This document shows positions 3,910 to 62,604 of a DNA stretch of 64,000 bases, one piece after another. Location of the stretch: the IMG/VR virus record IMGVR_UViG_3300018877_000003. One strand, 5' to 3'. Numbering within the stretch: position 1 is the stretch's first letter; every line of letters begins with the position of its first letter. The position numbers and the translations under genes were made by a program. Source of the stretch: a virus. The notes beneath the pieces are model-generated. The model had not been told where the DNA came from and made no database searches. It worked only from the letters and a program-made list of their open reading frames with translations.

Positions 3910-3939
3910 ATTATATCATTATTAATTCGTTTTGTTAAA
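3910..3939 (-). promoter_or_regulatory. 19-nt element copy A, full sigmaA-like promoter
   Basis: The - strand reads TTAACA-AAACGAATTAATAATGA-TATAAT. Core has 1 mismatch. Confidence 0.6.
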
Positions 3940-6900
3940 TTATCTATTACGTTTTAAGCTTTTTCTGACAAGCTGACACTTGTTAAGATGAAGCTCTTTA
4001 ACGTTAGGATTAGGCTTCCATTTTCCATTTTCGTTTTTCCAACCATATTTCTCTTCAACATCTAAAACTTTAATAATATCCCCTTCGTAGAGTAACTGGT
4101 CATCAAACGTCCAAAATTTCTTTTTGTTTACTTTAACAACAAATTCTCGACCAGTTTTGATCTGATAAAGAGTAACTTTTGGAGTATACTTTTTGTTAAT
4201 GTCTAAAACCAGCGCATATCTTCCATCCACATTGCTCCATGTAGAAGATGCATATCCGAGACTATCCTTTTCAAAAGCAATCTGATCATACAGGTCAATT
4301 TTCTGCGGTGGATTACTCCTAACCGCTTCTTCGTATTCTTTCAGATTTTTTAGTCGTTGAATCTTTGTTTTCTCTAAAAGACCTGCATCGTATTTCAAAG
4401 GTTTCTTAATTGTTTTCTCTTTCTCAGTTATAGTGACTTGACCTGTTTTTTTATTCTTTTTCTCTTTTCGGTCAATCACAATTTGGTCATCAAATTCTGG
4501 GTATAATTCAATGTTTGCTTTTTTCTTCCCTGACATGCAGAGGTATAATTCCAACAGGACTTCTTTCTCTCCGAACTCTCTAAAGAAATCGAGGCGGATC
4601 AATGTTTCCATTTGACGACTGTCTACAGAAGTTTTAAAAATGTCAACCAACAATGATACGAAATCATTCTTATCATAGTCTTTATCTTGGGCTAACTTAT
4701 AAAGTTCTTCTGCAACTTTTCTATTCAAATATTTGATAGATGCAATTCCTTTATAGATGTTCTGCTCTTTTCTATTGAAGTTGTAAAACGCTCTTGATTG
4801 ACCAAATTGTATCGGCTTGATTTCAACGTCCATTTTTTTAGCATAATTAACGATTTTTGTTGTCTTATCTTTATCATCATCTTGAATATTTAAGATGGTT
4901 GTTAAAAACTCAAGTGGATAATGATATCTTAAATAAGCCCCAATATATCCGATATAGCTATATGGCTGTGAATGGTTTACAGAGAATCCATACCGACTTG
5001 CATCGTCAATTACCTTTAGAAATGATTCTAAAATCTGCTCAATGTGCTCCTCAGATTCATTATATTGTTCTTTCATATGAGAAATAAAACCGTCATGAAT
5101 CTTAGGCAATAATTTTTGTGTTCCTTCTTTCTTTGCAAGTCCACGCCGAACCGTGTCAGATTCCGCTCCAGTATGTTTACAGAAGTCTGTAAGAAAGTTC
5201 ATAATCTGTTCTTGGAAAATAAGGTAGCCAAGAGTAGGTTTTAATGCCTCGTTCAAAGCTGGATGTCCATTATCTTTTGTCTCCCCAGCCGCGAGGTTAT
5301 ATCTATAGCTGTCACCAGATGGCCTTATTGCTCCATTAGCCATTGATAATAAATCAATATAGTCGATATCTCCAATATTATTCTTTATCCTATTCAAGGT
5401 TTCGTCACTAAACAACTGTTTAATATAGGCATGTGCAGAATCAGATTCAAGTTGGAATACTCCAAGAGTCGAATCACGAAGTGACTTCCACACATCCATG
5501 TCTTTAACATCGACATTGTCTGGAGTAAGTCTTTCGATATTTGCAAGTTTGCATGTTTCATTGATAAGTTCAATATTTGCTAAACCTAAAACGTCTAGTT
5601 TGACATAGTTTTCACCATCAAGTTCTTTCATATTAACCGCAGTAACACGATATTTACTCTCTTTTGTATATAATGTTGAAACGTTTGTCGCCAAATCAAT
5701 AGGAGACACGATAAATCCAGAAGGATGACTTCCCATAGATTCGATTACGCCGTTCATTACATCAACATATTCAAATAGCTCAGGGTATTTATGTCTATAG
5801 CTTTCATCAATTCGATCTTTTCCGTTAAATGTTTCTACAGCCTTGGCAATTGTATCAACCTCTTCTAACGGCATGCCTAATCCTTTTCCTACGAGGCGGA
5901 TCGATCCTTTTAAAGCTTTAGTGTTAAAAGTGACGATTTCAGCAAAATCAATTCCATCAAGACTAGCAAGATAATCGATTACTTCCTGTCTTCTAGATGG
6001 TGGAAAATCAATATCGATATCAGGAAGAGAGATACGGTCTGGATTCAAGAATCGGAAAAAGTTCAAATTATGCTTAATTGAATCCATCTCTGTAATTCCT
6101 AATACATAGGCAATCAAGCTTCCATTTACCGAACCGCGTCCATATCCTTGATAGATATCATTATCGTGACACCAGTCAATAATATTTTTTTGTAAAAGCA
6201 TATAATCAACAGCATTAAGTTTTACATAGGTGTCAAACTCTTCTCTAATCCTATCGAAGTAATCTTTTTTCTTTTCACTTGGGAACTTGTCAAAACCTCG
6301 TTTCTTAACACCTTCATTTATTTTTTGTTGAAAGACTTCAATAGGGTTCTCGTATAACTTTGGATATTTCGGAGTTTTATCCAAAGTAAACTCCTCGACC
6401 ATATCTGCCATTACATTAGTGTTATGTATAGCTTCTAAATATACGTTACGTGGCAATGCTCCTTGTCTTTCAAACATCTCAACTAATTCTGGATAGGATT
6501 TCATTGTTAAATCAAAAGAGTCTTCATCTCCATAATTAGCACCTTTTGATTTTAGAAATAGCTGTCTTGCTTTTGCGTGCTCAGCGTTTAATGCGTGTGT
6601 ATCAGTTCCAGCGATAAGAGGGATGTTCAGCTCTTTTGATAGTCGTAAAAGCATCTGATTAAATGCTATCTGATCTGGATGACTGTGATATTGAATTTCA
6701 AAAAACATTCGATGACGATTTTTTGCCATCCAGTTCAACATATCCTCAAACTCATTATTGATTGCAACTGCCTCTGTTAGCTTGCCAGCCTCTTCTAATG
6801 CGTTATATTTACTATACATTCTCCAGAGTGGGGAAGCCAAGCATGCAGAAGTCATAATAACATTGTCAGATGTAGCCTTTAATTCATCAAAGGTAATCCG

Positions 6901-7314
6901 AGGATTATAATAAAAATGACCATCTTCACGATTAAATGATTGAGATGTCAATTTATTGATCTCCAATACACCTTCGTAATTTTTAGCAATTAACATGTAG
7001 TGAAAGTTGTCACGTTCTAAAATCAGTTTACCAGTGGGACTTCCGTCCACGCCTTCTTCTTTTTTGATCTCTTTAGTTAAATAAACTTCATTTGCGTGTA
7101 TGTATTTCATGCCAACTTTCTCAATTGCTTGCTTCTTTTTAATCCAATTCATGACGCTTCCATGTTCTGAGATGGCTAGAGCATTCATTCCTAGTTTTTC
7201 AGCATAATCTATGTAATCTTGGTATTTTGTTACACTGTCTGCCCCTGTACCAGCCGTAAGGTTACTAATGTCAGAATGGTCATGATACATCACATAATTA
7301 TCCACGTACATCAC
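3940..7314 (-). CDS. DNA polymerase III alpha-subunit-like replicative polymerase (PHP + pol domains)
   Basis: 1124 aa. N-terminal PHP motif (HDHSDIS, GTDTH) and DnaE-type palm/fingers segments (GRGSVNGSLIAY, PDIDIDF). The exact start is uncertain (GTG, ATG or M9). Confidence 0.85.
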   Translation of the reverse strand: MMYVDNYVMYHDHSDISNLTAGTGADSVTKYQDYIDYAEKLGMNALAISEHGSVMNWIKKKQAIEKVGMKYIHANEVYLTKEIKKEEGVDGSPTGKLILERDNFHYMLIAKNYEGVLEINKLTSQSFNREDGHFYYNPRITFDELKATSDNVIMTSACLASPLWRMYSKYNALEEAGKLTEAVAINNEFEDMLNWMAKNRHRMFFEIQYHSHPDQIAFNQMLLRLSKELNIPLIAGTDTHALNAEHAKARQLFLKSKGANYGDEDSFDLTMKSYPELVEMFERQGALPRNVYLEAIHNTNVMADMVEEFTLDKTPKYPKLYENPIEVFQQKINEGVKKRGFDKFPSEKKKDYFDRIREEFDTYVKLNAVDYMLLQKNIIDWCHDNDIYQGYGRGSVNGSLIAYVLGITEMDSIKHNLNFFRFLNPDRISLPDIDIDFPPSRRQEVIDYLASLDGIDFAEIVTFNTKALKGSIRLVGKGLGMPLEEVDTIAKAVETFNGKDRIDESYRHKYPELFEYVDVMNGVIESMGSHPSGFIVSPIDLATNVSTLYTKESKYRVTAVNMKELDGENYVKLDVLGLANIELINETCKLANIERLTPDNVDVKDMDVWKSLRDSTLGVFQLESDSAHAYIKQLFSDETLNRIKNNIGDIDYIDLLSMANGAIRPSGDSYRYNLAAGETKDNGHPALNEALKPTLGYLIFQEQIMNFLTDFCKHTGAESDTVRRGLAKKEGTQKLLPKIHDGFISHMKEQYNESEEHIEQILESFLKVIDDASRYGFSVNHSQPYSYIGYIGAYLRYHYPLEFLTTILNIQDDDKDKTTKIVNYAKKMDVEIKPIQFGQSRAFYNFNRKEQNIYKGIASIKYLNRKVAEELYKLAQDKDYDKNDFVSLLVDIFKTSVDSRQMETLIRLDFFREFGEKEVLLELYLCMSGKKKANIELYPEFDDQIVIDRKEKKNKKTGQVTITEKEKTIKKPLKYDAGLLEKTKIQRLKNLKEYEEAVRSNPPQKIDLYDQIAFEKDSLGYASSTWSNVDGRYALVLDINKKYTPKVTLYQIKTGREFVVKVNKKKFWTFDDQLLYEGDIIKVLDVEEKYGWKNENGKWKPNPNVKELHLNKCQLVRKSLKRNR

Positions 7315-7828
7315 TCCTAATTAAATCGTTAACTCTTTTCTCAACTACTTCTGTTAGTTGTAAATAAACTTCATCTCCAAATGTTTTATGCAACTTTTTT
7401 AGATCGTTAATTGCATCAAGGCATTCATCAATCGATTCAATTAAGTCATATCTAACTACATCACTGTCGTTTACACCTTTTATACCAATTGCATCTCTAA
7501 TGGCGAATTTTATTTCTTCTTTAACTTTATTTGAATTAAGTAACACAAAGCAAAATGAAGGATAGCCACCTGTTTCGTGATTATACTCCTTAATTGCTGT
7601 TGCAATGATGTCATATGCAGTATCTCCTTCGGCAAATAAAAATACTTCTTCATGATCAAAATCTTTCATATGATTGATAAGATCAGGGTATATAGGATAG
7701 CCAAAGTAATAATACTCCTTAAATTCTTCATCATACCGAACATCTGTAATTAGGTAAGCATGGTTGTATAGATTGGATGAACGTAATTTAACAATGTCTC
7801 CTATTTGAAAATGCTCCAAATTAATCAC
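7298..7828 (-). CDS. hypothetical protein
   Basis: 176-aa co-oriented ORF. No motif recognised. Confidence 0.65.
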   Translation of the reverse strand: MINLEHFQIGDIVKLRSSNLYNHAYLITDVRYDEEFKEYYYFGYPIYPDLINHMKDFDHEEVFLFAEGDTAYDIIATAIKEYNHETGGYPSFCFVLLNSNKVKEEIKFAIRDAIGIKGVNDSDVVRYDLIESIDECLDAINDLKKLHKTFGDEVYLQLTEVVEKRVNDLIRSDVRG

Positions 7829-7837
7829 CCCTTATTG

Positions 7838-8440: not shown

Positions 8441-8442
8441 GA

Positions 8443-11716: not shown

Positions 11717-12091
11717 TTATTCATTATTAATTAGTTTTGTAATATAAATAGCAACTTTCCGATCTGTGTATTGACATGTTTTCTTTCCAATAATTTCAAC
11801 CAATCCTTTTGCTCTAAGTTCATTCAAGCGCGGATGGACACTATTACGATCTGATGAAGGGACTAGATTTTTCTTATGTAAAAAAACTGCTAGTTCTTTG
11901 GCTGTAGCTCCATTTTCAAATGAGTTATGTAAATTTTCAAAAACGACACGTTGACGTTCACTCAGAGTTTCTGAAACATGTGCATATGCTTCATTGCGCG
12001 TCTCCTTGGTGATGTCACTTGTTTTGTTCTTTTTGAATAAAGACGACAATCCACTAAAAAGTGATTCAGTAAAAGGCAACTTTGTAATCAT
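11717..12091 (-). CDS. winged-helix DNA-binding protein
   Basis: 124 aa. The segment ATAKELAVFL...RNSVHPRLNELRAKGLVE resembles a MarR/wHTH recognition helix plus wing. Confidence 0.55.
   Translation of the reverse strand: MITKLPFTESLFSGLSSLFKKNKTSDITKETRNEAYAHVSETLSERQRVVFENLHNSFENGATAKELAVFLHKKNLVPSSDRNSVHPRLNELRAKGLVEIIGKKTCQYTDRKVAIYITKLINNE
11722..11740 (-). promoter_or_regulatory. 19-nt element copy B (exact core), embedded in a CDS 3' end
   Basis: The core encodes the last residues TKLINN of 11717..12091. The flanking hexamers are weak (ATTACA / TAAAAG). Confidence 0.45.
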
Positions 12092-12102
12092 ATATCATTC
12101 TC

Positions 12103-12567
12103 CTATTCTTCTAAGTATTCAAAATTCAATTTCAAGACATAACCTTTTTTAAATATGTGTTCGTTTCCACACGTCATACAATATGTAGTATTTTCTTCAA
12201 CTAGATTTACTCTTTTACTTGAGCAAGATGGGCAACTATTGATATCAAAGTCTCCTTCAATTTTTGTGAAAACTTTATCAGATGTAACTTTCTCTTTAAG
12301 TGATTGCCCAAACTGCATGCAAGATTTCTTTACAGTAGTTGGATTAATTCCTAGCTCTTTTGCAATAACCATCCTAGGAACTCCATTTATATCTCTTTCA
12401 GCAATAATCTTTTTAAAATCATCTGTAAATGTCTTTTTGTATCTGCTATTTTCTTTATATGTATTCAAAACATTTAATACATCGCTACTCGATATTTGAA
12501 AACTGTCACTTATAAATTCAATAGGGCTTCCTTCTGCATAAGCAGTTAAAATCTTTTCTATTAACAC
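12103..12567 (-). CDS. HTH plus zinc-ribbon protein (putative regulator)
   Basis: 154 aa. Contains VIAKELGINPTTVKK (HTH-like) and CPSC...CMTCG. Confidence 0.55.
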   Translation of the reverse strand: MLIEKILTAYAEGSPIEFISDSFQISSSDVLNVLNTYKENSRYKKTFTDDFKKIIAERDINGVPRMVIAKELGINPTTVKKSCMQFGQSLKEKVTSDKVFTKIEGDFDINSCPSCSSKRVNLVEENTTYCMTCGNEHIFKKGYVLKLNFEYLEE

Positions 12568-13046: not shown

Positions 13047-13502
13047 CTATTGTTTGCTTAAAGATTGTTTTACAATTTGATTTACAAGCTTCATATCTGC
13101 TCTACCTTTAAGCTCTTGGCTTGCAAGTTTCATCGCCATCCCCATATTTCCTCCAGAGACTTTTACATATTCGACAATAGAACTTACGACATTTTCAACT
13201 TCACTTTCAGTTAATTGTTTTGGCAAATATAACATGAGCAATTGTTTTTCTGTTTCTTGCTTTGAAACATCGCGATCAACAGCTTTATACGCTTCAATCT
13301 CTTTGTCTAATTCTTTAATATTTCTTTGAATTACGGTTTGCACCTGATCATCGTTTAATTGAGTGATGTCAGATAGTTTGAGAGTGATCTTTTCTTTTTC
13401 CAACTTTGAAACCAATAGCCTCAGCGTAGAAAGTTTGTTTTTATCCTTCGACTTCAAGGCATTTTTGGTATCATCTTTAATCTGTTGTACCAGTTCAGTC
13501 AT
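13047..13502 (-). CDS. GatB/YqeY-domain protein
   Basis: 151 aa. Contains ALKSKDK..LSTLRLL and a C-terminal GGNMGMAMKL...GRAD.K.V, typical of the YqeY family. Confidence 0.7.
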   Translation of the reverse strand: MTELVQQIKDDTKNALKSKDKNKLSTLRLLVSKLEKEKITLKLSDITQLNDDQVQTVIQRNIKELDKEIEAYKAVDRDVSKQETEKQLLMLYLPKQLTESEVENVVSSIVEYVKVSGGNMGMAMKLASQELKGRADMKLVNQIVKQSLSKQ

Positions 13503-13533: not shown

Positions 13534-13552
13534 CATTATTAATTAGTTTTGT
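13534..13552 (-). promoter_or_regulatory. 19-nt element copy C (exact core, no credible -10)
   Basis: Lies 55 bp downstream of copy D. The - strand flanks are CATACA and TTTTGT. Confidence 0.45.
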
Positions 13553-13581
13553 ATGAATGTTTTAATTTGAGTTATGCATTT

Positions 13582-13610
13582 ATTATAGCATTATTAATTA
13601 GTTTTGTAAA
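13582..13610 (-). promoter_or_regulatory. 19-nt element copy D, full sigmaA-like promoter
   Basis: The - strand reads TTTACA-AAACTAATTAATAATGC-TATAAT. Confidence 0.65.
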
Positions 13611-13787: not shown

Positions 13788-13804
13788 ATATATTTTCATG
13801 CATT

Positions 13805-14125
13805 TTAACGTATAATTAATGATGAAGAGTAAATTGACTCCTCTCCATTCTTATAAATTACCTTAACTTCTTCGCTTTCTGGATTCCCTATAATTTTGCT
13901 TATATTATTTTGAATAAAAGACCTGTCAATTTCGTCTTCAAAAATGTTAAAGTGACCGCTTATTAGCCATAGAACCTCATCCTCATTTATTTGGTTTCTT
14001 GAACAGTGATTGGCTCCATAATTATCATACGTTGAACATACATAGGTATGTTTCTTAGCTCTCTTTTTAAATTTATGCTTCTTGCCACATTTCGAACAAT
14101 AAACTAAACCTTTTAGTAAAGACAT
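13805..14125 (-). CDS. stand-alone recombinase zinc-ribbon-domain protein (C-terminal third of a large serine recombinase)
   Basis: 106 aa from M8, which has an AGGGAGGA SD. LVYCSKCGKK...YVCSTYDNYGANHC matches the zinc beta-ribbon of large serine recombinases. No catalytic domain is present. Confidence 0.6.
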   Translation of the reverse strand: MSLLKGLVYCSKCGKKHKFKKRAKKHTYVCSTYDNYGANHCSRNQINEDEVLWLISGHFNIFEDEIDRSFIQNNISKIIGNPESEEVKVIYKNGEESIYSSSLIIR

Positions 14126-14221
14126 GTATGTATCCTCCCTGAACAACGCTCGTCTCCATTAATAAACATCTGTGATTATCTGGAGATAACAAAATAAAAG
14201 CACCCTTTGGATGCCTGAGTT

Positions 14222-14578
14222 TCAATTTTTATCTGATAATTCATTATCAATTATTTTCTTTGTTGCTTTCAGAATAGCTTTTCTTAATTTTTTATTTGAT
14301 GCAAGCTCTTCTTTGCCGACTTTCTCTAGATATGAGATAGTTATGTTGAGTGAATCTTCAACTTCTATTCCTTTAATTAAATAATCGAGAGACACTTCAT
14401 AATAATCGGACAACTTTTTGAGCATTTTTAAATTTGGTTTACGCTTTCCATTCTCATAGTTTGCATAAGTATTCTTTGCAACACCGATTGCTTCACCAAC
14501 TTCTTCCATAGTTGGCTTAAAAGGAATCTTTTTTCTTAATTCTCGTAGCCTGTTGCCAAATTCACTCACTTTCTTCAT
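14222..14578 (-). CDS. XRE-family HTH regulator 2
   Basis: Contains FGNRLRELRKK...MEEVGEAIGVAKNTYANYENGKRKPNL. Start uncertain (ATG 14578 or GTG 14569). Confidence 0.75.
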   Translation of the reverse strand: MKKVSEFGNRLRELRKKIPFKPTMEEVGEAIGVAKNTYANYENGKRKPNLKMLKKLSDYYEVSLDYLIKGIEVEDSLNITISYLEKVGKEELASNKKLRKAILKATKKIIDNELSDKN

Positions 14579-14918
14579 CTCCCGAGACGTCATCATTTTG
14601 AAGTATTTTTATAAGATTGATTACTGTCTTTCGTTTTTCTTCTGTTAACTTATATAAGCTATTTATGGTTTGGTTTATTTCTGACTCATAAAGATGCTGT
14701 CTTTTCATTGTTGATTGGTTATATTCTGATCTTCCAAGTAAATAATCTGTAGTTGTATCCAACACATCTGCCAATTTGCAGAGTATATCATGAGATGGAG
14801 TGCTGTGACCTGTTTCATAATTTGAAATAGTTCCTTTTGTTGTACCTATTTTATTTGCCAACTCAGTTTGAGTTAACTTTTTCTCTTTTCGTTTCTGTCG
14901 CAACCTCTTAACATCCAT
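14562..14918 (-). CDS. XRE-family HTH regulator 1
   Basis: Contains LRQKRKEKKLTQTELANKIGTTKGTISNYETGHSTPS. Start at ATG 14918, with a GAGGTGG SD. Confidence 0.8.
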   Translation of the reverse strand: MDVKRLRQKRKEKKLTQTELANKIGTTKGTISNYETGHSTPSHDILCKLADVLDTTTDYLLGRSEYNQSTMKRQHLYESEINQTINSLYKLTEEKRKTVINLIKILQNDDVSGDEESE

Positions 14919-14951
14919 GTGTTTAATCCACCTCACAGTCTGTATAAGCAT

Positions 14952-14980
14952 ATCATACATTGGTTAAGTTTCTCAAACAA
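14952..14980 (-). promoter_or_regulatory. candidate sigmaA promoter of the XRE-XRE-zinc-ribbon unit
   Basis: The - strand reads TTGTTT-17 nt-TATGAT. Confidence 0.45.
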
Positions 14981-14988
14981 GATCAAAT

Positions 14989-15016
14989 AAAAAAGCACCC
15001 CGAAGGATGCTTTTTA
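14989..15016 (-). terminator. rho-independent terminator
   Basis: GCATCC-ttcg-GGGTGC followed by TTTTTATTT on the - strand. Confidence 0.7.
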
Positions 15017-15352
15017 TTTGAAGATAAGTCTGTAAATCATTCGTTTTGGCTCATCTCTTCCGTTTTTCAAATCTGAGCGATCAACGGAGTGGATATACCA
15101 TTTATGATGTTTGTCAGACCAATTCATCAATTCAGTATCAACGATATCCGGGAAGCTATATGTATACTCTTCATCTGTTTCTGGATTTTTTAAATCCACT
15201 AACAGTATTGCTCCCATTTTTGCTTCAATGATTTGATGTCCTTTGATGCGGTGCAGGATTCTCTCATCAGCTCCGGGAATATCTGGACTCATACTCAATT
15301 CGACAGTCGAATAAGATTCAAGACACCCAATTAACATAGGATCAATAATCAC
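15014..15352 (-). CDS. hypothetical protein
   Basis: 112 aa. GTG start with a GGGAGGTG SD. Confidence 0.6.
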   Translation of the reverse strand: MIIDPMLIGCLESYSTVELSMSPDIPGADERILHRIKGHQIIEAKMGAILLVDLKNPETDEEYTYSFPDIVDTELMNWSDKHHKWYIHSVDRSDLKNGRDEPKRMIYRLIFK

Positions 15353-15423
15353 TTTTAATCACCTCCCTCTTTTTATATCGGACGTGGAGATGTAAATTTA
15401 AGGGTTTTGTAAAAATTTATAAT

Positions 15424-15452
15424 AAAAACACCCTTTGAGGGTGTTTTGTTTT
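15424..15452 (-). terminator. rho-independent terminator
   Basis: ACACCC-tcaaa-GGGTGT followed by TTTTTATT on the - strand. Confidence 0.7.
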
Positions 15453-15898
15453 TATGCTGATGGCGCATGGAGAGCTTTCCTGTACTCTTTAAAGAAGATT
15501 CGTGCACGTTCATTATCTTTAATAATATCTAGATTCTTGCTCTTTCTTACAACTTTATTTCTGTATTTTTTCTTTTTAGATTTGACGATTTGTTCATTTT
15601 CACTAAGCTTATAAGCGGCTGTTTCAAGAAAAACTTCGATCATCATTCCAATCACTAAAGGATATTCAAATATAACAAGTTTTAAGATGTGTAGTGAATA
15701 TTTCACGTTTCTTGTCAAATTAATAATCGCCCAGCCAAAATGGATAATAAAAACTGCTAATGGTATGACTAGATATATTGCCTTACTTTTTCCGATCAAA
15801 CGCATACCGCTTTGAGTGATCTTCTTATACGTTCCAACTGCCAATCCTGCATACACTACAACAGCAATAAATGGAACTCCCATAAGCAACATTGTCAT
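15452..15898 (-). CDS. multi-pass membrane protein with basic C-terminal tail
   Basis: 148 aa, about 4 hydrophobic helices, followed by KSKKKKYRNKVVRKSK. Confidence 0.65.
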   Translation of the reverse strand: MTMLLMGVPFIAVVVYAGLAVGTYKKITQSGMRLIGKSKAIYLVIPLAVFIIHFGWAIINLTRNVKYSLHILKLVIFEYPLVIGMMIEVFLETAAYKLSENEQIVKSKKKKYRNKVVRKSKNLDIIKDNERARIFFKEYRKALHAPSA

Positions 15899-15927
15899 CC
15901 CTCCCTAATTATCAGTGGTAAGGTTCT

Positions 15928-16446
15928 TTAAGCGTTTGTCTTTTTTGTTGCCCACTGCCGATTATTCACTCTGTAAAAGTCTACTCTATCCTCCATCGAT
16001 TCATACTTCCTTCTTTGACGAGTAAGCTCCTTTATTCTCTCTCTATGCTGAACTTCCTTTTTAGAACTTAATGTTGACCAATCGACAAAAGCTAAGAAAA
16101 CATATGAACCAAGTGAAAACCAGAGTATTATTTTAATCCATACATTTAAAAAAGCAGGATGAATGTTAAAACCACTCCAAGTAAAGCCCTGAATGATCGC
16201 AACTAAGATCACTGTAGCCCAAAGGCAGTAATTTCTTCTTTTGATATTTTTATTTTCAATCGGCTCTTGCGTAAAGTAATCTAATAAAAATGGCAATAAG
16301 AAAAGAATAACTGTGGAGAGTAAAGCACTCTGAGTAGCGCTTTCTTTAATTGTATTTCCAAGAGCAAACCATACCACTATGGTATATGCGGCTCTCACCC
16401 CATAAAAATTATTGTAATCTTTATCATTGCTATGATCCTTCCCCAA
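15928..16446 (-). CDS. multi-pass membrane protein with charged C-terminal tail
   Basis: 172 aa, about 4 hydrophobic helices. TTG start with an AGAGGTG SD. Confidence 0.65.
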   Translation of the reverse strand: MGKDHSNDKDYNNFYGVRAAYTIVVWFALGNTIKESATQSALLSTVILFLLPFLLDYFTQEPIENKNIKRRNYCLWATVILVAIIQGFTWSGFNIHPAFLNVWIKIILWFSLGSYVFLAFVDWSTLSSKKEVQHRERIKELTRQRRKYESMEDRVDFYRVNNRQWATKKTNA

Positions 16447-16571
16447 TACACAACACCTCTATATGTGATTATCTCTATCTTACCACATAATGTATAAAAA
16501 TTGGGTAATTTTAAATGTTTTTCTTTAAAAAATTGTCGTATAAACCGGAAATAAACAAGTGAATTGAACTA

Positions 16572-17006
16572 TTATGAGAGAACACTATTTATTGCTTCTT
16601 CAAGCATTTCATTAAAGTTTTCAAATTTTTCAATTACTTCCCCACTTGGTTTATCCAATTCGACAAAGACATTGTTATCAATATCGAGACAATACCAAGA
16701 AATGTTAGAATCACCAAAAAATAAGTAGTTATAATCCCAATCATTTTCACGCCATATTTCATTAGCTCCAATAATTCCATTGTTGTCGTCATTAGGACTT
16801 GCATTATAAATAACTAACCCATTAAAATCTAACCCATTTGCTTTTTTTAAAAATACCTCATGGTCTTTTACCCAAAGATTTTCTTTCACATTTTTGGAAA
16901 CCCATTCTTTTGTCAGTTGAATATCTTCATTATTTGCTGGTATCATAATTGATTTGTTATCTTTATTTTTAAATTCTTCTATTCGTAATAATAATTCAGA
17001 AATCAC
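16572..17006 (-). CDS. immunity protein for the LXG toxin (SUKH/SMI1-KNR4-like)
   Basis: Lies immediately downstream of the toxin. GTG start at 17006 with an AGGAGTG SD, 11 nt after the toxin stop. The FLKKANGLDFNGLVIY...YCLD pattern matches SUKH proteins. Confidence 0.6.
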   Translation of the reverse strand: MISELLLRIEEFKNKDNKSIMIPANNEDIQLTKEWVSKNVKENLWVKDHEVFLKKANGLDFNGLVIYNASPNDDNNGIIGANEIWRENDWDYNYLFFGDSNISWYCLDIDNNVFVELDKPSGEVIEKFENFNEMLEEAINSVLS

Positions 17007-17017
17007 AAAAATCACTC

Positions 17018-18889: not shown

Positions 18890-18997
18890 GGATTCAATCC
18901 TTTCCCAAGCGATAGTTAGATATATTTTACCACTTAAGAGAAAGATTGGTGAAGAGGATTTTACTTTAAATCAATATTGTAGGGGAATATAGAGGTC

Positions 18998-19038
18998 AAC
19001 TTAAAAACACAATGAGAGTTGTGTACAGTTTTTAAGTT
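18998..19038. repeat. 41-bp palindrome A (11-bp perfect arms), probable terminator of the recombinase gene
   Basis: AACTTAAAAAC-19 nt-GTTTTTAAGTT. The loop carries the 16-mer ATGAGAGTTGTGTACA (19012-19027). Confidence 0.6.
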
Positions 19039-19044
19039 ATATAG

Positions 19045-19098
19045 ACTATGTTAGTTGTGGTTACAACGCTTTGCCGTTATGTTGTCAACTAGCATAGT
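19045..19098. other. 54-bp imperfect palindrome B, candidate attP or recombinase binding site
   Basis: ACTATGTTAGTTG (19045-57) pairs with CAACTAGCATAGT (19086-98) at 12/13 positions. There are inner ACAAC/GTTGT arms and a central TT at 19071-72. It lies 30 bp from the recombinase stop. Confidence 0.35.
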
Positions 19099-19127
19099 AT
19101 GGGTGAGCTAACATTCTCAAAATACGA

Positions 19128-20750: not shown

Positions 20751-20769
20751 GACAATTCATCTCCCGAAG

Positions 20770-20785
20770 TGTACACAACTCTCAT
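20770..20785. repeat. inverted copy of the 16-mer ATGAGAGTTGTGTACA
   Basis: Exact reverse complement of 19012-19027. Sits between the recombinase promoter -10 and its SD. Confidence 0.8.
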
Positions 20786-20789
20786 ATTA

Positions 20790-20818
20790 ATTATATACAC
20801 TATTATAGTATTTGAAAA
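20790..20818 (-). promoter_or_regulatory. candidate sigmaA promoter of the recombinase gene
   Basis: The - strand reads TTTTCA-17 nt-TATAAT. The predicted start falls at the edge of the 16-mer. Confidence 0.45.
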
Positions 20819-20867
20819 GAAAGAGATGAAAATCTTGCATTCACCTCTTTCTTATTATGTATTAGCA

Positions 20868-21053
20868 TCATTCTTCTACTCTATTAATTACTCCATTCAA
20901 AACTCCATTTAACCTTAAATCATTCCAGATTAGTTGATAACAATATGTTAAAGTCTTTTCAACATCGTCTTCATCAAAATCCTTTTGAATGAAACTAACT
21001 TTATTTAATTGACTCAATTTATTTTCACCTTTTCTTACACTACAAAGTGACAC
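20868..21053 (-). CDS. small acidic hypothetical protein
   Basis: 61-aa ORF (possibly 49 aa from TTG with an AAAGGTGA SD), directly upstream of the recombinase unit. Confidence 0.45.
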   Translation of the reverse strand: MSLCSVRKGENKLSQLNKVSFIQKDFDEDDVEKTLTYCYQLIWNDLRLNGVLNGVINRVEE

Positions 21054-22155: not shown

Positions 22156-22575
22156 TTACTCTCCTTCTGTTGTTACTTTTAATTTTCCATTCTCTAAAGA
22201 AAAGAAATTGATTTGTTTTTTCTCGGTGTTAAAATTGACTCTGGTAATTATTGAATTTTTAACGAAATCTACACCATTTTTAGTAGACATTATTGATTTA
22301 TCTACGAAGATGTGTGTGAATTTTTCATCTGCTTCTATTTGTGCAATTGGTGCAAAATAAATCACACTTCCATCTGTAAAAAACTCTTTTCGCAATTGAG
22401 GTGAAGGCATTTGATAACCTGTTGTCTTTTTCCCTTCGGAAACCAAGCCTTTAACAACTTTCTGAAACATTGCCTCCCTTGCTCCTATAGAAGAGATATC
22501 TTGGCTATTAAAATATGTAATTAAAATTTTCTTTGGTTTATTCTCCATAATTAATATCATCAACTCCTTTGTCAT
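22156..22575 (-). CDS. hypothetical protein
   Basis: 139-aa co-oriented ORF. Start uncertain. Confidence 0.6.
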   Translation of the reverse strand: MTKELMILIMENKPKKILITYFNSQDISSIGAREAMFQKVVKGLVSEGKKTTGYQMPSPQLRKEFFTDGSVIYFAPIAQIEADEKFTHIFVDKSIMSTKNGVDFVKNSIITRVNFNTEKKQINFFSLENGKLKVTTEGE

Positions 22576-23859: not shown

Positions 23860-23878
23860 CATTATTAATTAGTTTTAT
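23860..23878 (-). promoter_or_regulatory. 19-nt element copy E (1 mismatch), abuts the ligase SD
   Basis: The - strand reads ATAAAACTAATTAATAATG-GATAAAGAGGTG. There is no credible -10. Confidence 0.45.
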
Positions 23879-25937: not shown

Positions 25938-25956
25938 CATTATTAATTTGTTTATT
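25938..25956 (-). promoter_or_regulatory. 19-nt element copy F (3 mismatches), abuts the PNK SD
   Basis: The - strand reads AATAAACAAATTAATAATG-AACTAAAAAGGAG. Confidence 0.35.
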
Positions 25957-27247: not shown

Positions 27248-27266
27248 CATTATTAATTAGTTTTGT
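27248..27266 (-). promoter_or_regulatory. 19-nt element copy G (exact), abuts the RNA ligase SD
   Basis: The - strand reads ACAAAACTAATTAATAATG-TTTAAGGAGAGG. Confidence 0.45.
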
Positions 27267-30381: not shown

Positions 30382-30410
30382 ATTATAACATTATTAATTA
30401 GTTTAGTCAA
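30382..30410 (-). promoter_or_regulatory. 19-nt element copy H, full sigmaA-like promoter
   Basis: The - strand reads TTGACT-AAACTAATTAATAATGT-TATAAT. The -35 overlaps the stop of 30407..30700. Confidence 0.65.
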
Positions 30411-31791: not shown

Positions 31792-31817
31792 ATTTTATCA
31801 TTATTAATTAGTTTAAT
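31792..31817 (-). promoter_or_regulatory. 19-nt element copy I (2 mismatches) with -10 TAAAAT
   Basis: Overlaps the nrdF stop codon. The -35 is weak. Confidence 0.45.
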
Positions 31818-35596: not shown

Positions 35597-35615
35597 CATT
35601 ATTAATTAGTTTAGT
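35597..35615 (-). promoter_or_regulatory. 19-nt element copy J (1 mismatch), abuts the nrdH SD
   Basis: The - strand reads ACTAAACTAATTAATAATG-ATAAAGGAG. It lies 91 bp downstream of copy K. Confidence 0.45.
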
Positions 35616-35680
35616 TGTTTTAAAAATCATTTAAACTTCATTGGCTTAGACGACCTCCTATTCAACATGTTACAATTATT

Positions 35681-35709
35681 ATAATATCATTATTAATTAG
35701 TTTTGTCAA
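35681..35709 (-). promoter_or_regulatory. 19-nt element copy K, full sigmaA-like promoter
   Basis: The - strand reads TTGACA-AAACTAATTAATAATGA-TATTAT. The core encodes the last codons (LDKTN*) of the topoisomerase A subunit. Confidence 0.65.
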
Positions 35710-39835: not shown

Positions 39836-39862
39836 ACCATCATCCTTATTTTTCTGTATTGT

Positions 39863-39881
39863 CATTATTAATTCGTTTGAT
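39863..39881 (-). promoter_or_regulatory. 19-nt element copy L (3 mismatches)
   Basis: The - strand reads ATCAAACGAATTAATAATG, upstream of the topoisomerase B SD. Confidence 0.35.
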
Positions 39882-40754: not shown

Positions 40755-40783
40755 ATTATAACATTATTAATTAGTTTAGTAAA
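40755..40783 (-). promoter_or_regulatory. 19-nt element copy M, full sigmaA-like promoter
   Basis: The - strand reads TTTACT-AAACTAATTAATAATGT-TATAAT. Confidence 0.65.
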
Positions 40784-43892: not shown

Positions 43893-43921
43893 ATTATATC
43901 ATTATTAATTAGTTTTGTAAA
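43893..43921 (-). promoter_or_regulatory. 19-nt element copy N, full sigmaA-like promoter
   Basis: The - strand reads TTTACA-AAACTAATTAATAATGA-TATAAT. Confidence 0.65.
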
Positions 43922-53865: not shown

Positions 53866-54216
53866 TTATTCAATCTCTATATTCAACCCTGTTGCTCCCA
53901 CTTTAATTTCCTTCATCTCTCCAATTTGTGGTATATATAAATGTTTCTTTCCATTCACCGAAACAATTTCACCCTTCCAACAACCGTTTTGCACAAAGAA
54001 TTTTGTCCCAATTGGTAAAGTGTGAATATCTGCGTTCTCTATATATTCTCCTTCCTCTCTATACACCTCTCCTTGTTCAGAAACCCTCCTTTTAGAAACT
54101 TTAATATCGATTTTGTATAGTGAATTTTCATCTTCAAGCATTAAATTATGTAACCAATCAGTTACTTTTGATTGCCCATCAATAACGTTAACTGTATCGA
54201 AAATCTTCCTATACAT
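53866..54216 (-). CDS. hypothetical protein
   Basis: 116-aa co-oriented ORF. Confidence 0.6.
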   Translation of the reverse strand: MYRKIFDTVNVIDGQSKVTDWLHNLMLEDENSLYKIDIKVSKRRVSEQGEVYREEGEYIENADIHTLPIGTKFFVQNGCWKGEIVSVNGKKHLYIPQIGEMKEIKVGATGLNIEIE

Positions 54217-54217
54217 G

Positions 54218-54412
54218 TCATTCCTCTTCTCTTGAAAAATACTTGTCTACCACTTGTTTTTCTAAGTAAACGACACCATCTATTAATATGCCTCTATGTG
54301 CATCTACATCTTTAACAGTAACCGTTCCGCCTTTCCAGAAGTTATTTAGGCAATCTTCTTTAACAGTTAATGTTTGACCCTTATAATAATCATATTGATT
54401 CCTTTTATTCAT
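54218..54412 (-). CDS. hypothetical small protein
   Basis: 64 aa from M8 (GGAGAGGAG SD). Confidence 0.5.
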   Translation of the reverse strand: MNKRNQYDYYKGQTLTVKEDCLNNFWKGGTVTVKDVDAHRGILIDGVVYLEKQVVDKYFSREEE

Positions 54413-54507
54413 TGATCTCCTCTCCAGATCCATCAGCTTGTCCTCCGCTCTGAATAAAATAACCCCTTTATTGAGCCTTATAATTTCGACTCTTTTGCTT
54501 TTTATGT

Positions 54508-54807
54508 TTACTTATGAATGCCGCTCTCTTCAATTAATTCATATGTTTCTTCAAAAATCTCTTTTTCAACCGGATATCGCTCACCTTTAACACCTGTAAC
54601 AATATAGTGCTTTCCAACTTCAACTTCATACCATCCTTCAAGTGTTTTAATTGCTGGTCTCCTATTTGTTTTAGGAATGTACCCATCTTTTGGGAAGAAC
54701 CCTAATAATTTATCCGAGAACAATGGGTAGCATGCATATCCATCTTCCATTCCCATTTCGAATAACTCCGCTTCAACAACAATAGGTTTTTTACGATATT
54801 TAGCCAA
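54508..54807 (-). CDS. hypothetical phage protein
   Basis: 99 aa. KKPIVVEAE...GERYPVEKEIFEETYE is a pattern I recall from widespread small phage proteins. Family not verified. Confidence 0.6.
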   Translation of the reverse strand: MAKYRKKPIVVEAELFEMGMEDGYACYPLFSDKLLGFFPKDGYIPKTNRRPAIKTLEGWYEVEVGKHYIVTGVKGERYPVEKEIFEETYELIEESGIHK

Positions 54808-55602: not shown

Positions 55603-55839
55603 TCAAATCTTCCTCCGATCTGTTTCCCAAGCAATGATAAACCTAGTCTGATCCTTGATAGAGAATTTTTTCACTTTAAAGCCATATAGCCCATACTCTT
55701 TAGGATGATAACCAACTTCAATGCTAGTATTGAAAACCAAATCATTTTCATCAACCACGCCAGAGGCTTCTATCAGTGCTTTGTGTTTTAAAAAGTATCC
55801 TGAATGACTTTTTTCATACTTTAAAATTTTAATCTCCAT
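55603..55839 (-). CDS. hypothetical small protein
   Basis: 78-aa co-oriented ORF. Confidence 0.55.
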   Translation of the reverse strand: MEIKILKYEKSHSGYFLKHKALIEASGVVDENDLVFNTSIEVGYHPKEYGLYGFKVKKFSIKDQTRFIIAWETDRRKI

Positions 55840-55859: not shown

Positions 55860-55878
55860 CATTATTAATTAGTTTTGT
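55860..55878 (-). promoter_or_regulatory. 19-nt element copy O (exact), no credible hexamers
   Basis: The - strand reads CACC-ACAAAACTAATTAATAATG-TTAGAAGGGA, running directly into the SD region. Confidence 0.45.
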
Positions 55879-56159: not shown

Positions 56160-56188
56160 ATTTTCTCATTATTAATTAGTTTTGTCAA
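56160..56188 (-). promoter_or_regulatory. 19-nt element copy P (exact) with -35 TTGACA and -10 GAAAAT
   Basis: The -35 overlaps the stop codon of 56185..56856. Confidence 0.5.
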
Positions 56189-60508: not shown

Positions 60509-60538
60509 GTCATCACCCTTTAACTTTTTGATATTATT

Positions 60539-60567
60539 ATTATAACATTATTAGTTAGTTTTGTAAA
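60539..60567 (-). promoter_or_regulatory. 19-nt element copy Q, full sigmaA-like promoter
   Basis: The - strand reads TTTACA-AAACTAACTAATAATGT-TATAAT. Core has 1 mismatch. Confidence 0.65.
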
Positions 60568-60573
60568 TGTATA

Positions 60574-60604
60574 TAAAAGAAAAAGGTGAGAATTATTTCT
60601 CACC
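60574..60604 (-). terminator. rho-independent terminator after the RecJ-like gene
   Basis: GGTGAGAA-ataa-TTCTCACC followed by TTTTTCTTTT, immediately after the stop codon. Confidence 0.85.
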
Positions 60605-62402: not shown

Positions 62403-62454
62403 ATTTCATTTCCCCTTTCAGAATGATATCCAAAAGCAAATGCAACTATTACAT

Positions 62455-62473
62455 CATTATTAATTAGTTTTAT
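62455..62473 (-). promoter_or_regulatory. 19-nt element copy R (1 mismatch) with -10 TGTAAT
   Basis: Lies 128 bp downstream of copy S. It contains the stop codon of the 19-codon micro-ORF. Confidence 0.45.
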
Positions 62474-62529
62474 GAAATATGAATCTTTCCCCTTTCGGGA
62501 GTTATATGTATTTCGGATATGTCGATCAT
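62470..62529 (-). CDS. 19-codon micro-ORF between element copies S and R
   Basis: AGAGGTGA SD 4 nt before the ATG. Sequence is MIDISEIHITPERGKIHIS. May be a leader rather than a protein gene. Confidence 0.25.
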   Translation of the reverse strand: MIDISEIHITPERGKIHIS

Positions 62530-62575
62530 TATATCACCTCTGATAAAATTGAACTATGACAAAACTCATAAAACT

Positions 62576-62604
62576 AATATAACATTATTAATTAGTTTTG
62601 TAAA
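62576..62604 (-). promoter_or_regulatory. 19-nt element copy S, full sigmaA-like promoter
   Basis: The - strand reads TTTACA-AAACTAATTAATAATGT-TATATT. Confidence 0.6.

What the first reader, a model, noticed from the sequence alone, without database searches (positions are those of the whole stretch)
3910..62604. Nineteen co-oriented copies of a 19-nt element (ACAAAACTAATTAATAATG) that forms the spacer of the array's promoters
By eye I find 19 copies, all on the - strand and so co-directional with transcription. Nine are exact 19/19 matches, at 11722, 13534, 13589, 27248, 35688, 43900, 55860, 56167 and 62583. The other ten have 1-3 mismatches. In eight copies (A, D, H, K, M, N, Q, S) the element is framed as TT(G/T/A)AC(A/T) + 17 nt + TAT(A/T)(A/T)T. 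The first bases of the element supply the end of the -35, and the rest is the entire 17-nt spacer of a near-consensus sigmaA promoter. Spacer sequence is normally unconstrained, so a conserved spacer points to a second reader. That reader could be a phage repressor or activator operator buried in every early promoter, or a promoter for a phage-specific sigma or RNAP. The element is conserved even where it overlaps coding sequence, for example the last codons TKLINN of 11717..12091 and LDKTN* of the topoisomerase A subunit, and the nrdF stop. It is absent from the 13.8-20.9 kb island and from the 44-55.8 kb small-gene block. From memory, SPbeta has a repeated element (SPBRE) in early promoters bound by its master repressor. 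I cannot verify any sequence similarity here.
Basis: partly seen in the sequence, partly recalled or inferred. Interest (0 to 1): 0.8.

Follow-up and report, generated by a model that had tools for sequence, protein, structure and literature searches.

The report
Repressor box inside phage promoters
A 19-base sequence repeated at 19 gene junctions of a large Bacillus-type phage is real and under selection, and is most likely the docking site of the phage's integrase-shaped master repressor, as already shown for phage SPbeta, so it extends a known system to a new phage group.

Summary
There are 19 copies (at most 3 mismatches) of ACAAAACTAATTAATAATG, all on the - strand, against 0.26 expected. 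None lies inside a gene body (P about 2e-17). The 19-nt block has sharp borders, and it evolves about 4.5 times more slowly than its flanks in a 92-96% identical relative.

Eight copies are near-consensus sigmaA promoters (TTGACA-like, 17 nt, TGnTATAAT) with the element as spacer. Three are weaker promoters. Eight have no usable -35 or -10, yet keep the block and sit 17-37 nt before a start codon. So something other than RNA polymerase reads the block.

The window comes from a circular, roughly 158 kb Tsamsa-like phage that is distantly related to SPbeta. About 7.6 kb beyond the window it encodes a full-length homologue of MrpR/SroF, the integrase-fold repressor that binds SPbeta's repeated element SPBRE. 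I recovered SPBRE from SPbeta and it has the same architecture. Phi3T SroF binds a long asymmetric AT-rich box as a monomer, which fits this asymmetric, transcription-oriented element.

Best reading (about 0.6): an SPBRE-type operator, with the promoter-less copies acting as auxiliary or roadblock sites. Binding is inferred, not shown. This is a new member of a known kind and of moderate interest.

The parts
3917..3935 (-). Box copy with 1 mismatch inside a strong sigmaA-type promoter (TTAACA-17-TATAAT, TG at -15/-14; whole promoter 3910-3938). It lies 4 nt after the stop of the PolIII-alpha gene.
   Evidence: an ortholog is present in the relative
11722..11740 (-). Exact box copy with no usable -35 or -10. 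It overlaps the last codons (TKLINNE*) of ORF 11717-12091, and an RBS plus ATG follows 37 nt downstream.
13534..13552 (-). Exact box copy with no -35 or -10 (TCATAC ... TTTGTG). It lies 55 nt downstream of the promoter copy at 13589 and 31 nt before the start of gene 13047-13502.
13589..13607 (-). Exact box copy inside a strong promoter (TTTACA-17-TATAAT, TG). It is the upstream member of a tandem pair.
23860..23878 (-). Box copy with 1 mismatch and no usable -35 or -10. It lies 17 nt before the ATG of the DNA ligase gene 22538-23842.
25938..25956 (-). Box copy with 3 mismatches that is not a promoter. It abuts the stop of the RNA ligase gene 25956-27230 and lies 21 nt before the ATG of 24909-25916.
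27248..27266 (-). Exact box copy that is not a promoter. It lies 17 nt before the TTG start of RNA ligase gene 25956-27230.
30389..30407 (-). Box copy with 1 mismatch inside a strong promoter (TTGACT-17-TATAAT, TG).
31799..31817 (-). Box copy with 2 mismatches. It contains the nrdF stop codon. A possible weak extended -10 promoter is present (TGaTAAAAT with a poor -35).
35597..35615 (-). Box copy with 1 mismatch that is not a promoter. It lies 91 nt downstream of promoter copy 35688 and is followed directly by an RBS.
35688..35706 (-). Exact box copy inside a strong promoter (TTGACA-17-TATTAT, TG). The -35 and the first part of the box encode LDKTN* of topoisomerase subunit A.
39863..39881 (-). 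Box copy with 3 mismatches that is not a promoter. It lies just before the topoisomerase subunit B gene 37877-39865.
40762..40780 (-). Box copy with 1 mismatch inside a strong promoter (TTTACT-17-TATAAT, TG). It follows a T-rich terminator-like stretch.
43900..43918 (-). Exact box copy inside a strong promoter (TTTACA-17-TATAAT, TG; 11 of 12 hexamer matches).
55860..55878 (-). Exact box copy that is not a promoter (ACCACA ... TAGAAG). It lies 20 nt before the ATG of 55603-55839, at the head of the box-free 12 kb block of small genes.
56167..56185 (-). Exact box copy inside a promoter with a perfect -35 and a weak -10 (TTGACA-17-GAAAAT, TG).
60546..60564 (-). Box copy with 1 mismatch (T11C, the same in the relative) inside a strong promoter (TTTACA-17-TATAAT, TG). 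It lies directly after terminator 60606-60583.
62455..62473 (-). Box copy with 1 mismatch and a weak promoter (TTCATA-17-TGTAAT, TG). It lies 128 nt downstream of promoter copy 62583.
62583..62601 (-). Exact box copy inside a strong promoter (TTTACA-17-TATATT, TG; whole promoter 62576-62604). It lies 10 nt after the stop of the YorJ-like primase gene.

Best explanation
The 19-nt block is the operator box of the phage's MrpR/SroF-family master repressor. This is an integrase-fold protein that, in its studied relatives, no longer recombines DNA. It is encoded about 7.6 kb beyond the right end of the window.

In about eleven window copies the box occupies the last three bases of the -35 plus the whole 17-nt spacer, up to the extended -10 TG, of a host sigmaA promoter. 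A bound repressor would therefore exclude RNA polymerase.

In eight copies the box stands alone at a gene junction, just upstream of the next ribosome-binding site. There it would act as an auxiliary operator or as an orientation-dependent roadblock to read-through transcription. Because the repressor family binds a long asymmetric box as a monomer, the box has a direction, and that direction always follows transcription.

Genes that should stay on in a lysogen lack the box. These are the island with the serine recombinase, the LXG toxin and the Xre regulators.

Shown here: the element, its selection, its promoter register, the homologous repressor gene and the parallel with SPBRE. Inferred: that this protein binds this box and represses.
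For: 1. Real and selected. There are 19 copies against 0.26 expected. All 19 lie at gene junctions (P about 2e-17). The conserved block has sharp 19-nt borders. Across 18 orthologous copies in a 92-96% identical relative there are 6/342 differences in the box against 115/1440 in the 40-nt flanks (Fisher p = 6e-6).

2. Read by something other than RNA polymerase. Eight copies keep 16-19 of 19 bases while both hexamers are lost. For example, 13534 is an exact copy flanked by TCATAC and TTTGTG.

3. A candidate reader exists. L110, which is 100% identical to the window over 11.4 kb, encodes a 349-aa protein at L110:2016-3065. It scores 76.4 bits on Pfam MrpR_N_CB and 49.5 bits on MrpR_C_cat, against cut-offs of 27. 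Its only PDB relatives are MrpR/YopR of SPbeta and one further entry named only as a 'Core-binding (CB) domain-containing protein', matched end to end at E = 1e-18.

4. Same architecture in the experimentally characterised system. SPBRE recovered from SPbeta reads tAGACA-AATACAAATAATATGTA-TATAAT. Its yopV, yopM and yonX copies also lack a -10 and abut the RBS, and all copies are co-oriented with their genes. MrpR occupies these sites in ChAP-seq and EMSA (PMC10516654).

5. Phi3T SroF binds as a monomer and reads 24 of 26 bp of an asymmetric AT-rich box (bioRxiv 10.1101/2025.11.27.690993). The window element has no dyad symmetry and always follows gene direction, including + strand copies before tail and lysis genes.

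6. Variant boxes sit in the promoter and the first codons of the repressor gene itself, at L110:1652 and L110:2031.

7. Specificity tracks the repressor. A phage with a 99% identical MrpR homologue has the same box. PK-3, at 50% identity, has its own box, TGATACAAATAATG, in 23 copies per 50 kb.

8. All strong TG-bearing promoters on the gene strand in 43-63 kb carry the box. The box-free island has ordinary box-less promoter candidates.
Against: - There is no binding, transcription or genetic data for this phage. The link between protein and box is by homology (27% identity to MrpR) and co-occurrence only.
- Similarity of the box to SPBRE is weak (10 of 17 spacer positions, not clearly above the expectation for AT-rich DNA). 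No SPbeta site matches within 3 mismatches.
- The 3' half of the box (AWTAATG) is shared by promoters of many Tsamsa-like phages whose MrpR homologues are only 44-68% identical to one another. That half may serve RNA polymerase rather than the repressor.
- The other SPbeta lysogeny genes (aimR, yopQ, yopO, yopN) were not found in the parts of the phage and its relative that I could read. No LexA boxes were found there either.
- The window alone has about twice as many copies as the whole of SPbeta, and some precede late genes. Nothing like that is reported for SPbeta in the papers I read.
Confidence: 0.6

Rival explanations
1. The box is the binding site of a different phage DNA-binding protein. 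Candidates are one of the Xre-type HTH proteins (14222-14596, 14562-14960), the winged-helix-like protein 11717-12091, the HTH protein 12103-12567, or a timing regulator that activates or shuts off transcription during lytic growth.
For: Several small DNA-binding proteins are encoded in the window. The operon that contains 11717-12567 is headed by a tandem box pair. Boxes in front of tail and lysis genes would also suit a temporal regulator. Nothing here ties the box physically to the MrpR homologue.
Against: Xre-type HTH proteins normally bind dyad-symmetric sites as dimers, and the box has no dyad. The only family with a demonstrated multi-copy, asymmetric, promoter-spacer box in related phages is MrpR/SroF. 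The Xre genes sit in the one island that lacks boxes.
Confidence: 0.15
2. There is no second reader. The block is simply this phage's consensus for very strong host sigmaA promoters (AT-rich spacer plus extended -10). It spread by duplication or gene conversion, and the promoter-less copies are decaying promoters.
For: The -35, the 17-nt spacing, the TG and the -10 are textbook sigmaA features. The 3' half of the spacer is common to promoters of all the Tsamsa-like phages examined, whatever their MrpR divergence.
Against: Neutral decay would hit the spacer as well as the hexamers. Yet eight copies have lost both hexamers and keep the 19-mer nearly intact. The box is about 4.5 times more conserved than its flanks between relatives, including in promoter-less copies. 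The 5' half of the spacer differs between the window phage, PK-3 and Tsamsa. Several promoter-less copies sit so close to the RBS that a transcript started there would lack it.
Confidence: 0.12
3. The element works at the RNA level. In polycistronic transcripts, ACAAAACUAAUUAAUAAUG just upstream of ribosome-binding sites would be a processing site, or a binding site for a translational regulator or enhancer.
For: Promoter-less copies lie 17-37 nt before start codons. The sequence is AU-rich and would be unstructured. It is strictly co-oriented with transcription.
Against: Promoter-embedded copies lie upstream of their own transcription start, so they would be absent from those transcripts. The block's register with the -35 and -10 hexamers is exact. 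No Rfam family matches. The homologous SPBRE copies next to an RBS are occupied on DNA by MrpR.
Confidence: 0.05
4. The block is the promoter for a phage-encoded sigma factor or RNA polymerase.
For: A roughly 19-nt conserved, oriented block directly upstream of genes resembles phage polymerase promoters. SPbeta-type phages can encode the YonO polymerase.
Against: No YonO homologue was found in the window, its flanks or the relative's loci. No sigma factor was found among the roughly 40 proteins scanned. The strong copies already have near-consensus sigmaA hexamers at the correct spacing.
Confidence: 0.04
5. The copies are module-boundary sequences that mainly serve as short homologies for recombination and gene shuffling, like the mobile promoter cassettes of T4-type phages.
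For: All copies are at gene junctions. The gene content between copies differs between the window phage and its relative (patchy alignment).
Against: Nineteen bases is short for homologous recombination. No conserved stem-loop or flank accompanies the block. This could be a side effect of the boxes, but it does not explain their exact promoter register.
Confidence: 0.04

Closest known systems
SPBRE (SPbeta repeated element) and Phi3TRE, the operator boxes of the integrase-fold master repressor MrpR/YopR/SroF of SPbeta-family phages
   Same: The boxes are multi-copy, AT-rich and asymmetric, and co-oriented with the genes downstream. SPBRE spans the last bases of the -35, the 17-nt spacer and the -10 of sigmaA promoters, in the same register as the window element. 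Some SPBRE copies lack a -10 and abut the RBS. The source phage encodes a full-length MrpR/SroF homologue. A box lies upstream of the replication module (near the YorF gene) in both phages (PMC10516654; bioRxiv 10.1101/2025.11.27.690993).
   Different: The box sequence differs (10 of 17 spacer positions shared with SPBRE). The repressor is only 27% identical. The phage belongs to the Tsamsa-like group, not Spbetavirus. There are at least 27 copies in the roughly 84 kb I could read, against about 10 in all of SPbeta. Copies also precede tail and lysis genes. No arbitrium or sro operon genes and no LexA boxes were found in the parts examined. Binding is untested.
Operators and stoperators of cluster A mycobacteriophages (L5 gp71, TipsytheTRex repressor)
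   Same: More than twenty asymmetric sites are spread over the genome, both in promoters and in short intergenic gaps. They show a striking correlation between site orientation and direction of transcription, and a monomeric repressor reads them (PMC9283540). The promoter-less, junction-located copies here look like stoperators.
   Different: The repressor fold is unrelated (two HTH-type domains against an integrase fold). Those sites are 13 bp, not 19 or more. The host and promoter type differ. No elongation block has been shown for MrpR/SroF or for this phage. This is a functional analogy, not family membership.
Conserved early-promoter spacers of other Tsamsa-like phages (Joanripponvirinae: Tsamsa, PK-3, Kirov and metagenomic relatives)
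   Same: The gene order is the same, and MrpR-like genes (44-52% identical) are annotated as integrase or Xer recombinase. The promoters read TTGACA-17-TGnTATAAT with a shared 3' spacer half AWTAATG. PK-3 also has promoter-less copies next to an RBS.
   Different: The 5' half of the spacer is lineage-specific: AAACTAATT here, AGTGATACA in PK-3 and ARCAYAAAA in Tsamsa. None of the papers on these phages that I could read mentions promoters or repressors.

Membership tests
SPBRE/Phi3TRE-type operator of an MrpR/SroF repressor | The same phage encodes an MrpR/SroF-family (integrase-fold) protein. | tested here: met
   L110:2016-3065 scores 76.4 bits on Pfam MrpR_N_CB and 49.5 bits on MrpR_C_cat (cut-offs 27). 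The PDB matches are MrpR/YopR of SPbeta plus one entry named only as a CB-domain protein (E = 1e-18, full length). L110 is 100% identical to the window over 11.4 kb.
SPBRE/Phi3TRE-type operator of an MrpR/SroF repressor | A long asymmetric AT-rich box is present in many copies across the phage genome, co-oriented with the genes downstream. | tested here: met
   There are 19 copies in the window and 8 more in 20 kb of flanks. There is no dyad symmetry. The orientation follows gene direction on both strands.
SPBRE/Phi3TRE-type operator of an MrpR/SroF repressor | The box overlaps the core (-35, spacer, -10) of sigmaA promoters of lytic genes. | tested here: met
   Eight strong and three weak promoter-type copies share the register of SPBRE as recovered from SPbeta.
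SPBRE/Phi3TRE-type operator of an MrpR/SroF repressor | The box sequence is similar to SPBRE or Phi3TRE. | tested here: inconclusive
   No SPbeta site matches within 3 mismatches. Ten of 17 spacer positions are shared with SPBRE when aligned on the hexamers. Boxes are expected to differ between repressor specificities, as SPBRE and Phi3TRE do.
SPBRE/Phi3TRE-type operator of an MrpR/SroF repressor | The repressor physically occupies the box (ChAP-seq, EMSA) and represses the promoter. | not testable with these tools
   This needs experiments. The evidence exists only for SPbeta and Phi3T.
SPbeta-family arbitrium phage (Spbetavirus-like lysogeny module) | The phage carries aimR-aimP-aimX and the sroA-F (yopM-R) operon. 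| tested here: not met
   tblastn with AimR, YopM, YopN, YopO and YopQ found nothing in the window, its flanks or the relative's loci. Only YopR-like and YopP-like genes were found. About 74 kb of the phage could not be read, so absence is not proven.
Cluster A mycobacteriophage stoperators | Asymmetric sites lie in promoters and in short intergenic gaps, oriented with transcription. | tested here: met
   compared with PMC9283540
Cluster A mycobacteriophage stoperators | The phage has an L5 gp71-type repressor (HTH plus stoperator domain) and a 13-bp consensus. | not tested
   I made no search for gp71 homologues. The box is 19 nt and the candidate reader has a different fold, so I claim analogy only.
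T4-type mobile promoter cassettes (early promoter plus stem-loop) | A conserved stem-loop accompanies each promoter copy. | tested here: not met
   Information content in the 25-30 nt on either side of the block is at background.
Promoter of a phage-encoded sigma factor or RNA polymerase | The phage encodes its own sigma factor or RNA polymerase. | tested here: inconclusive
   No YonO homologue was found, and no sigma factor among the roughly 40 proteins scanned. Most small genes, and about 74 kb of the genome, were not scanned.

The most novel reading that the evidence does not exclude
A monomeric integrase-fold repressor silences a 158 kb phage genome through at least 27 oriented boxes. It would do so both by occluding promoters and by blocking elongation at promoter-less junction sites, a convergent counterpart of mycobacteriophage stoperators. 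The box would be modular: a constant 3' half shared by the whole Tsamsa-like subfamily, and a variable 5' half that sets immunity specificity. It would follow that the 'integrase' cited as evidence of a temperate lifestyle in this phage group is in fact the master repressor.
Probability: 0.25. Interest if true: 0.65.

Novelty: new member of a known kind. Interest (0 to 1): 0.45.

Why it matters
- It would extend the recently described integrase-fold repressor system (MrpR/SroF with SPBRE) from SPbeta-family phages to the Tsamsa-like giant siphoviruses of Bacillus.
- In the papers I could read on those phages, the homologous gene is annotated as an integrase or Xer recombinase, and none of them mentions promoters or repressors.
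- It gives a concrete, testable operator sequence and a map of the regulated promoters.
- The set of lineage-specific box variants (this phage, PK-3, Tsamsa) could be used to study how an asymmetric 19-26 bp specificity evolves.
- The promoter-less copies offer a direct test of whether this repressor family also blocks elongation.

Tried and rejected
- Megablast of 4 kb of the window against 50,697 phage records found no close relative, only 80% identity over thymidylate synthase.
- Searching SPbeta for the element with up to 5 mismatches gave only chance-level hits on both strands.
- An exact 16-mer scan of IMG/VR gave mostly singletons. Only the two contigs of IMG genome 2728369130 carry many copies.
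- An exact 19-mer scan of GTDB representative genomes gave 28 unrelated singletons and no host identification.
- The published Phi3T box does not occur in the Tsamsa-like loci. It was found only in SPbeta-like loci, next to an RBS.
- There is no dyad symmetry in the element, so I set aside a classical dimeric HTH operator.
- No LexA (Cheo) boxes occur in the window or its flanks, so the Sar/LexA induction route of SPbeta phages could not be traced.
- No Rfam family and no tRNA gene is present in the window.
- The generic promoter scan is not enriched over shuffles as a whole. Only the top-scoring TG-bearing sites coincide with the box.
- Literature searches on Tsamsa-like phages found no description of promoters or repressors.
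- Tiling the whole 158 kb contig was not possible, because only window-encoded proteins can be looked up. About 74 kb of the phage remains unseen.

Full report
OBSERVATION

All are on the - strand, and nine are exact. Dinucleotide-preserving shuffles give 0.26 sites on average, and none of 100 shuffles gave more than 3. A weight matrix built from the sites finds 19 on the - strand, none on the + strand, and nothing of intermediate score except one weak site at 14242. The family is therefore discrete, not the tail of an AT-rich background.

Aligning the 19 copies with six further copies from the flank shows high information content at positions 1-19 and background immediately outside. The 3' part, ATTAATAATG, is almost invariant, and variation is confined mainly to positions 2, 3 and 8.

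All 19 copies lie in intergenic gaps or overlap only the last codons of the upstream ORF. Since 87% of positions lie inside ORF bodies, this has a probability of about 2e-17.

TWO KINDS OF COPY

- Eight copies (3917, 13589, 30389, 35688, 40762, 43900, 60546, 62583) are near-consensus sigmaA promoters. They read TTGACA-like, 17 nt, then TG-n-TATAAT-like. The element supplies the last three bases of the -35 and the spacer up to the TG.
- Three more (56167, 62455, 31799) have one good and one poor hexamer.
- Eight copies (11722, 13534, 23860, 25938, 27248, 35597, 39863, 55860) have no usable -35 or -10, yet keep 16-19 of the 19 bases. They sit 17-37 nt before a start codon, often so close to the ribosome-binding site that a transcript started there would lack it.

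Four promoter-type copies are followed 55-128 nt downstream by a second copy, counting one pair just outside the window. In three of these pairs the downstream copy is promoter-less. In the fourth (62583/62455) it is a weak promoter. These eight promoter-less copies, rather than the general rule that spacers are unconstrained, are the real argument that something other than RNA polymerase reads the block.

SELECTION

IMG/VR holds a relative from IMG genome 2728369130, on two contigs, that is 92-96% identical in DNA. For 18 orthologous copies there are 6 differences in 342 box positions against 115 in 1440 flanking positions (Fisher p = 6e-6). All six box differences fall at positions 1-3 and 8, and promoter-less copies are conserved as well as the others.

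The exact 19-mer occurs only as 28 unrelated singletons in 185,579 representative genomes. It is therefore not a feature of AT-rich Bacillus DNA.

WHAT THE PHAGE IS

The window encodes, all on the - strand:
- a PolIII-alpha polymerase, a RecJ-like nuclease and a YorJ-like primase;
- type II topoisomerase and nrdIEF;
- DNA and RNA ligases;
- an LXG toxin and a large serine recombinase.

Identity to SPbeta proteins is 23-45%.

An exact-protein look-up places the window on a 158,061-bp metagenome contig (ENA ERZ27286114, k141_714978). That contig is 100% identical to the window over 11.4 kb, and its ends overlap by 141 nt. The genome is therefore circular and about 157.9 kb. Gene order and protein similarity place it with the Tsamsa-like giant siphoviruses (Joanripponvirinae).

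THE CANDIDATE READER

About 7.6 kb beyond the right end of the window, L110:2016-3065 encodes a 349-aa protein. It passes both Pfam MrpR models (76.4 and 49.5 bits against cut-offs of 27). Its only relatives among solved structures are MrpR/YopR of SPbeta and one entry named only as a core-binding (CB) domain protein. The match is end to end at E = 1e-18. No canonical integrase family matched.

MrpR is the master repressor of SPbeta. ChAP-seq found ten peaks, all at promoters carrying the SPbeta repeated element SPBRE, and EMSA and reporter fusions confirmed binding and repression (PMC10516654).

I recovered SPBRE from the SPbeta genome de novo. It reads tAGACA-AATACAAATAATATGTA-TATAAT, that is, the end of a -35, a 17-nt spacer and a -10, in exactly the register of the window element. 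Its yopV, yopM and yonX copies lack a -10 and abut the ribosome-binding site, and every copy points the same way as its gene.

A recent preprint shows that the Phi3T homologue SroF binds as a monomer and reads 24 of 26 bp of an asymmetric AT-rich box. Its authors call that box Phi3TRE, and it differs from SPBRE (bioRxiv 10.1101/2025.11.27.690993). This fits three properties of the window element:
- it has no dyad symmetry;
- it has a fixed direction;
- that direction always follows transcription.

The third point holds outside the window too. Copies on the + strand precede + strand tail and endolysin genes (L191:3206 and 8299). In the relative, copies on either strand are followed by long ORFs on the same strand.

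Variant boxes lie in the promoter and in the first codons of the repressor gene itself (L110:1652 and 2031). A pair lies before the YorF-like replication gene, where SPbeta also has an SPBRE.

SPECIFICITY

The relative with a 99% identical MrpR homologue has the same box. PK-3, with a 50% identical homologue, has 23 copies per 50 kb of its own block TGATACAAATAATG in the same promoter register, again including promoter-less copies next to ribosome-binding sites. Tsamsa promoters read TTGACA-ARCAYAAAAAWTAATGA-TATAAT.

The 5' half of the spacer is therefore lineage-specific. The 3' half, AWTAATG, is shared across many Tsamsa-like phages whose MrpR homologues are only 44-68% identical to one another. 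That shared half includes the extended -10 TG. It may belong to RNA polymerase recognition, or it may be a constant part of the repressor box. I cannot tell which. It is the main reason my confidence is not higher.

DISTRIBUTION

In 43-63 kb, every strong TG-bearing promoter on the gene strand carries the box. The 12 kb block of small genes at 44-55.8 kb has no strong internal promoter and is headed by the copies at 56167 and 55860.

The box-free island at 13.8-20.9 kb holds two Xre-type regulators bracketed by terminators, an LXG toxin and the serine recombinase. It has ordinary box-less promoter candidates. These are the genes one would expect to stay on in a lysogen. That fits a repressor operator, but it is an inference.

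MECHANISM PROPOSED

The MrpR homologue binds each box as a monomer. At promoter-type copies it covers roughly -33 to -14 and excludes sigmaA polymerase. At promoter-less copies it adds occupancy or blocks read-through from upstream, in the manner of the operators and stoperators of cluster A mycobacteriophages. Those are also asymmetric, oriented with transcription, found both in promoters and in short intergenic gaps, and read by a monomer (PMC9283540). The second part is analogy only. No elongation block has been shown for this repressor family.

RIVALS

- A different phage DNA-binding protein may read the box.
- The block may be a pure promoter consensus. The promoter-less conserved copies and the lineage-specific 5' half argue against this.
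- It may be an RNA-level signal. The exact promoter register, and the DNA occupancy of the homologous SPBRE copies, argue against this.
- It may be a promoter for a phage sigma factor or RNA polymerase. None was found, but the search was incomplete.
- The copies may be recombination module boundaries.

VERDICT

The element is best filed as a new member of the SPBRE/Phi3TRE class of operators, in a phage group where, in the papers I could read, the repressor homologue is annotated as a recombinase. Binding and repression remain to be shown.

Noticed in passing
window 1897-3133 (- strand): A Rap-type TPR protein (375 aa, Pfam RapH_N plus TPR) is followed by an overlapping 39-aa secreted peptide, MKIKLLVCAVLLLGAIGVSASAYVKADNASFKVTERNAT. 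Its C-terminal ERNAT resembles Phr pentapeptides. This looks like a phage-borne Rap-Phr quorum-sensing cassette next to the point where early and late genes converge.
   Followed up: partly
window 13800-20900, especially 19065-19080: This box-free island holds two Xre HTH genes (14222-14960) bracketed by terminators, an LXG/HNH toxin (17018-18889) and a large serine recombinase (19128-20723). Both contigs of the 92-96% relative end at window 19065-19080, about 50 nt beyond the recombinase stop codon. That suggests an attP site, or an assembly branch between the integrated and free forms.
   Followed up: partly
window about 15467-15607; loci L110 and L191: The source contig (ENA ERZ27286114, k141_714978, 158,061 bp) has a 141-nt terminal overlap that falls inside the window. 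The phage genome therefore assembles as a circle of about 157.9 kb.
   Followed up: yes
window 53869-54511 (- strand): Two small proteins are 72-83% identical to SPbeta YoqR and YoqS, whereas the replication proteins are only 23-30% identical to SPbeta. This points to a recent gene exchange between otherwise distant phages.
   Followed up: no
window 13534-13607, 35597-35706, 62455-62601; L110:3946-4030: These are tandem box pairs spaced 55, 91, 128 and 66 nt apart. The upstream copy is always a full promoter. The downstream copy is promoter-less in three pairs and a weak promoter in the pair at 62583/62455. The relative has a further pair 56 nt apart.
   Followed up: partly
L110:1652-1670 and L110:2031-2049 (7.6-8 kb beyond the right end of the window): Variant boxes with 3 and 2 mismatches sit in the promoter and in the first codons of the MrpR-homologue gene. 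Both are conserved in the relative. This suggests autoregulation.
   Followed up: no
L115 (Bacillus phage PK-3) and L116 (Tsamsa): PK-3 carries 23 copies per 50 kb of its own promoter-spacer block TGATACAAATAATG. Tsamsa promoters share ARCAYAAAAAWTAATGA. Conserved promoter spacers seem to be a trait of the whole Tsamsa-like subfamily, and the papers I could read do not describe them.
   Followed up: partly
window 3880-3909 (- strand) and L191:8330-8370: Short hairpins (for example ctaggtagattaattctgcctag) lie directly downstream of some promoter-type copies, in the predicted 5' leaders. No Rfam family matches them.
   Followed up: no
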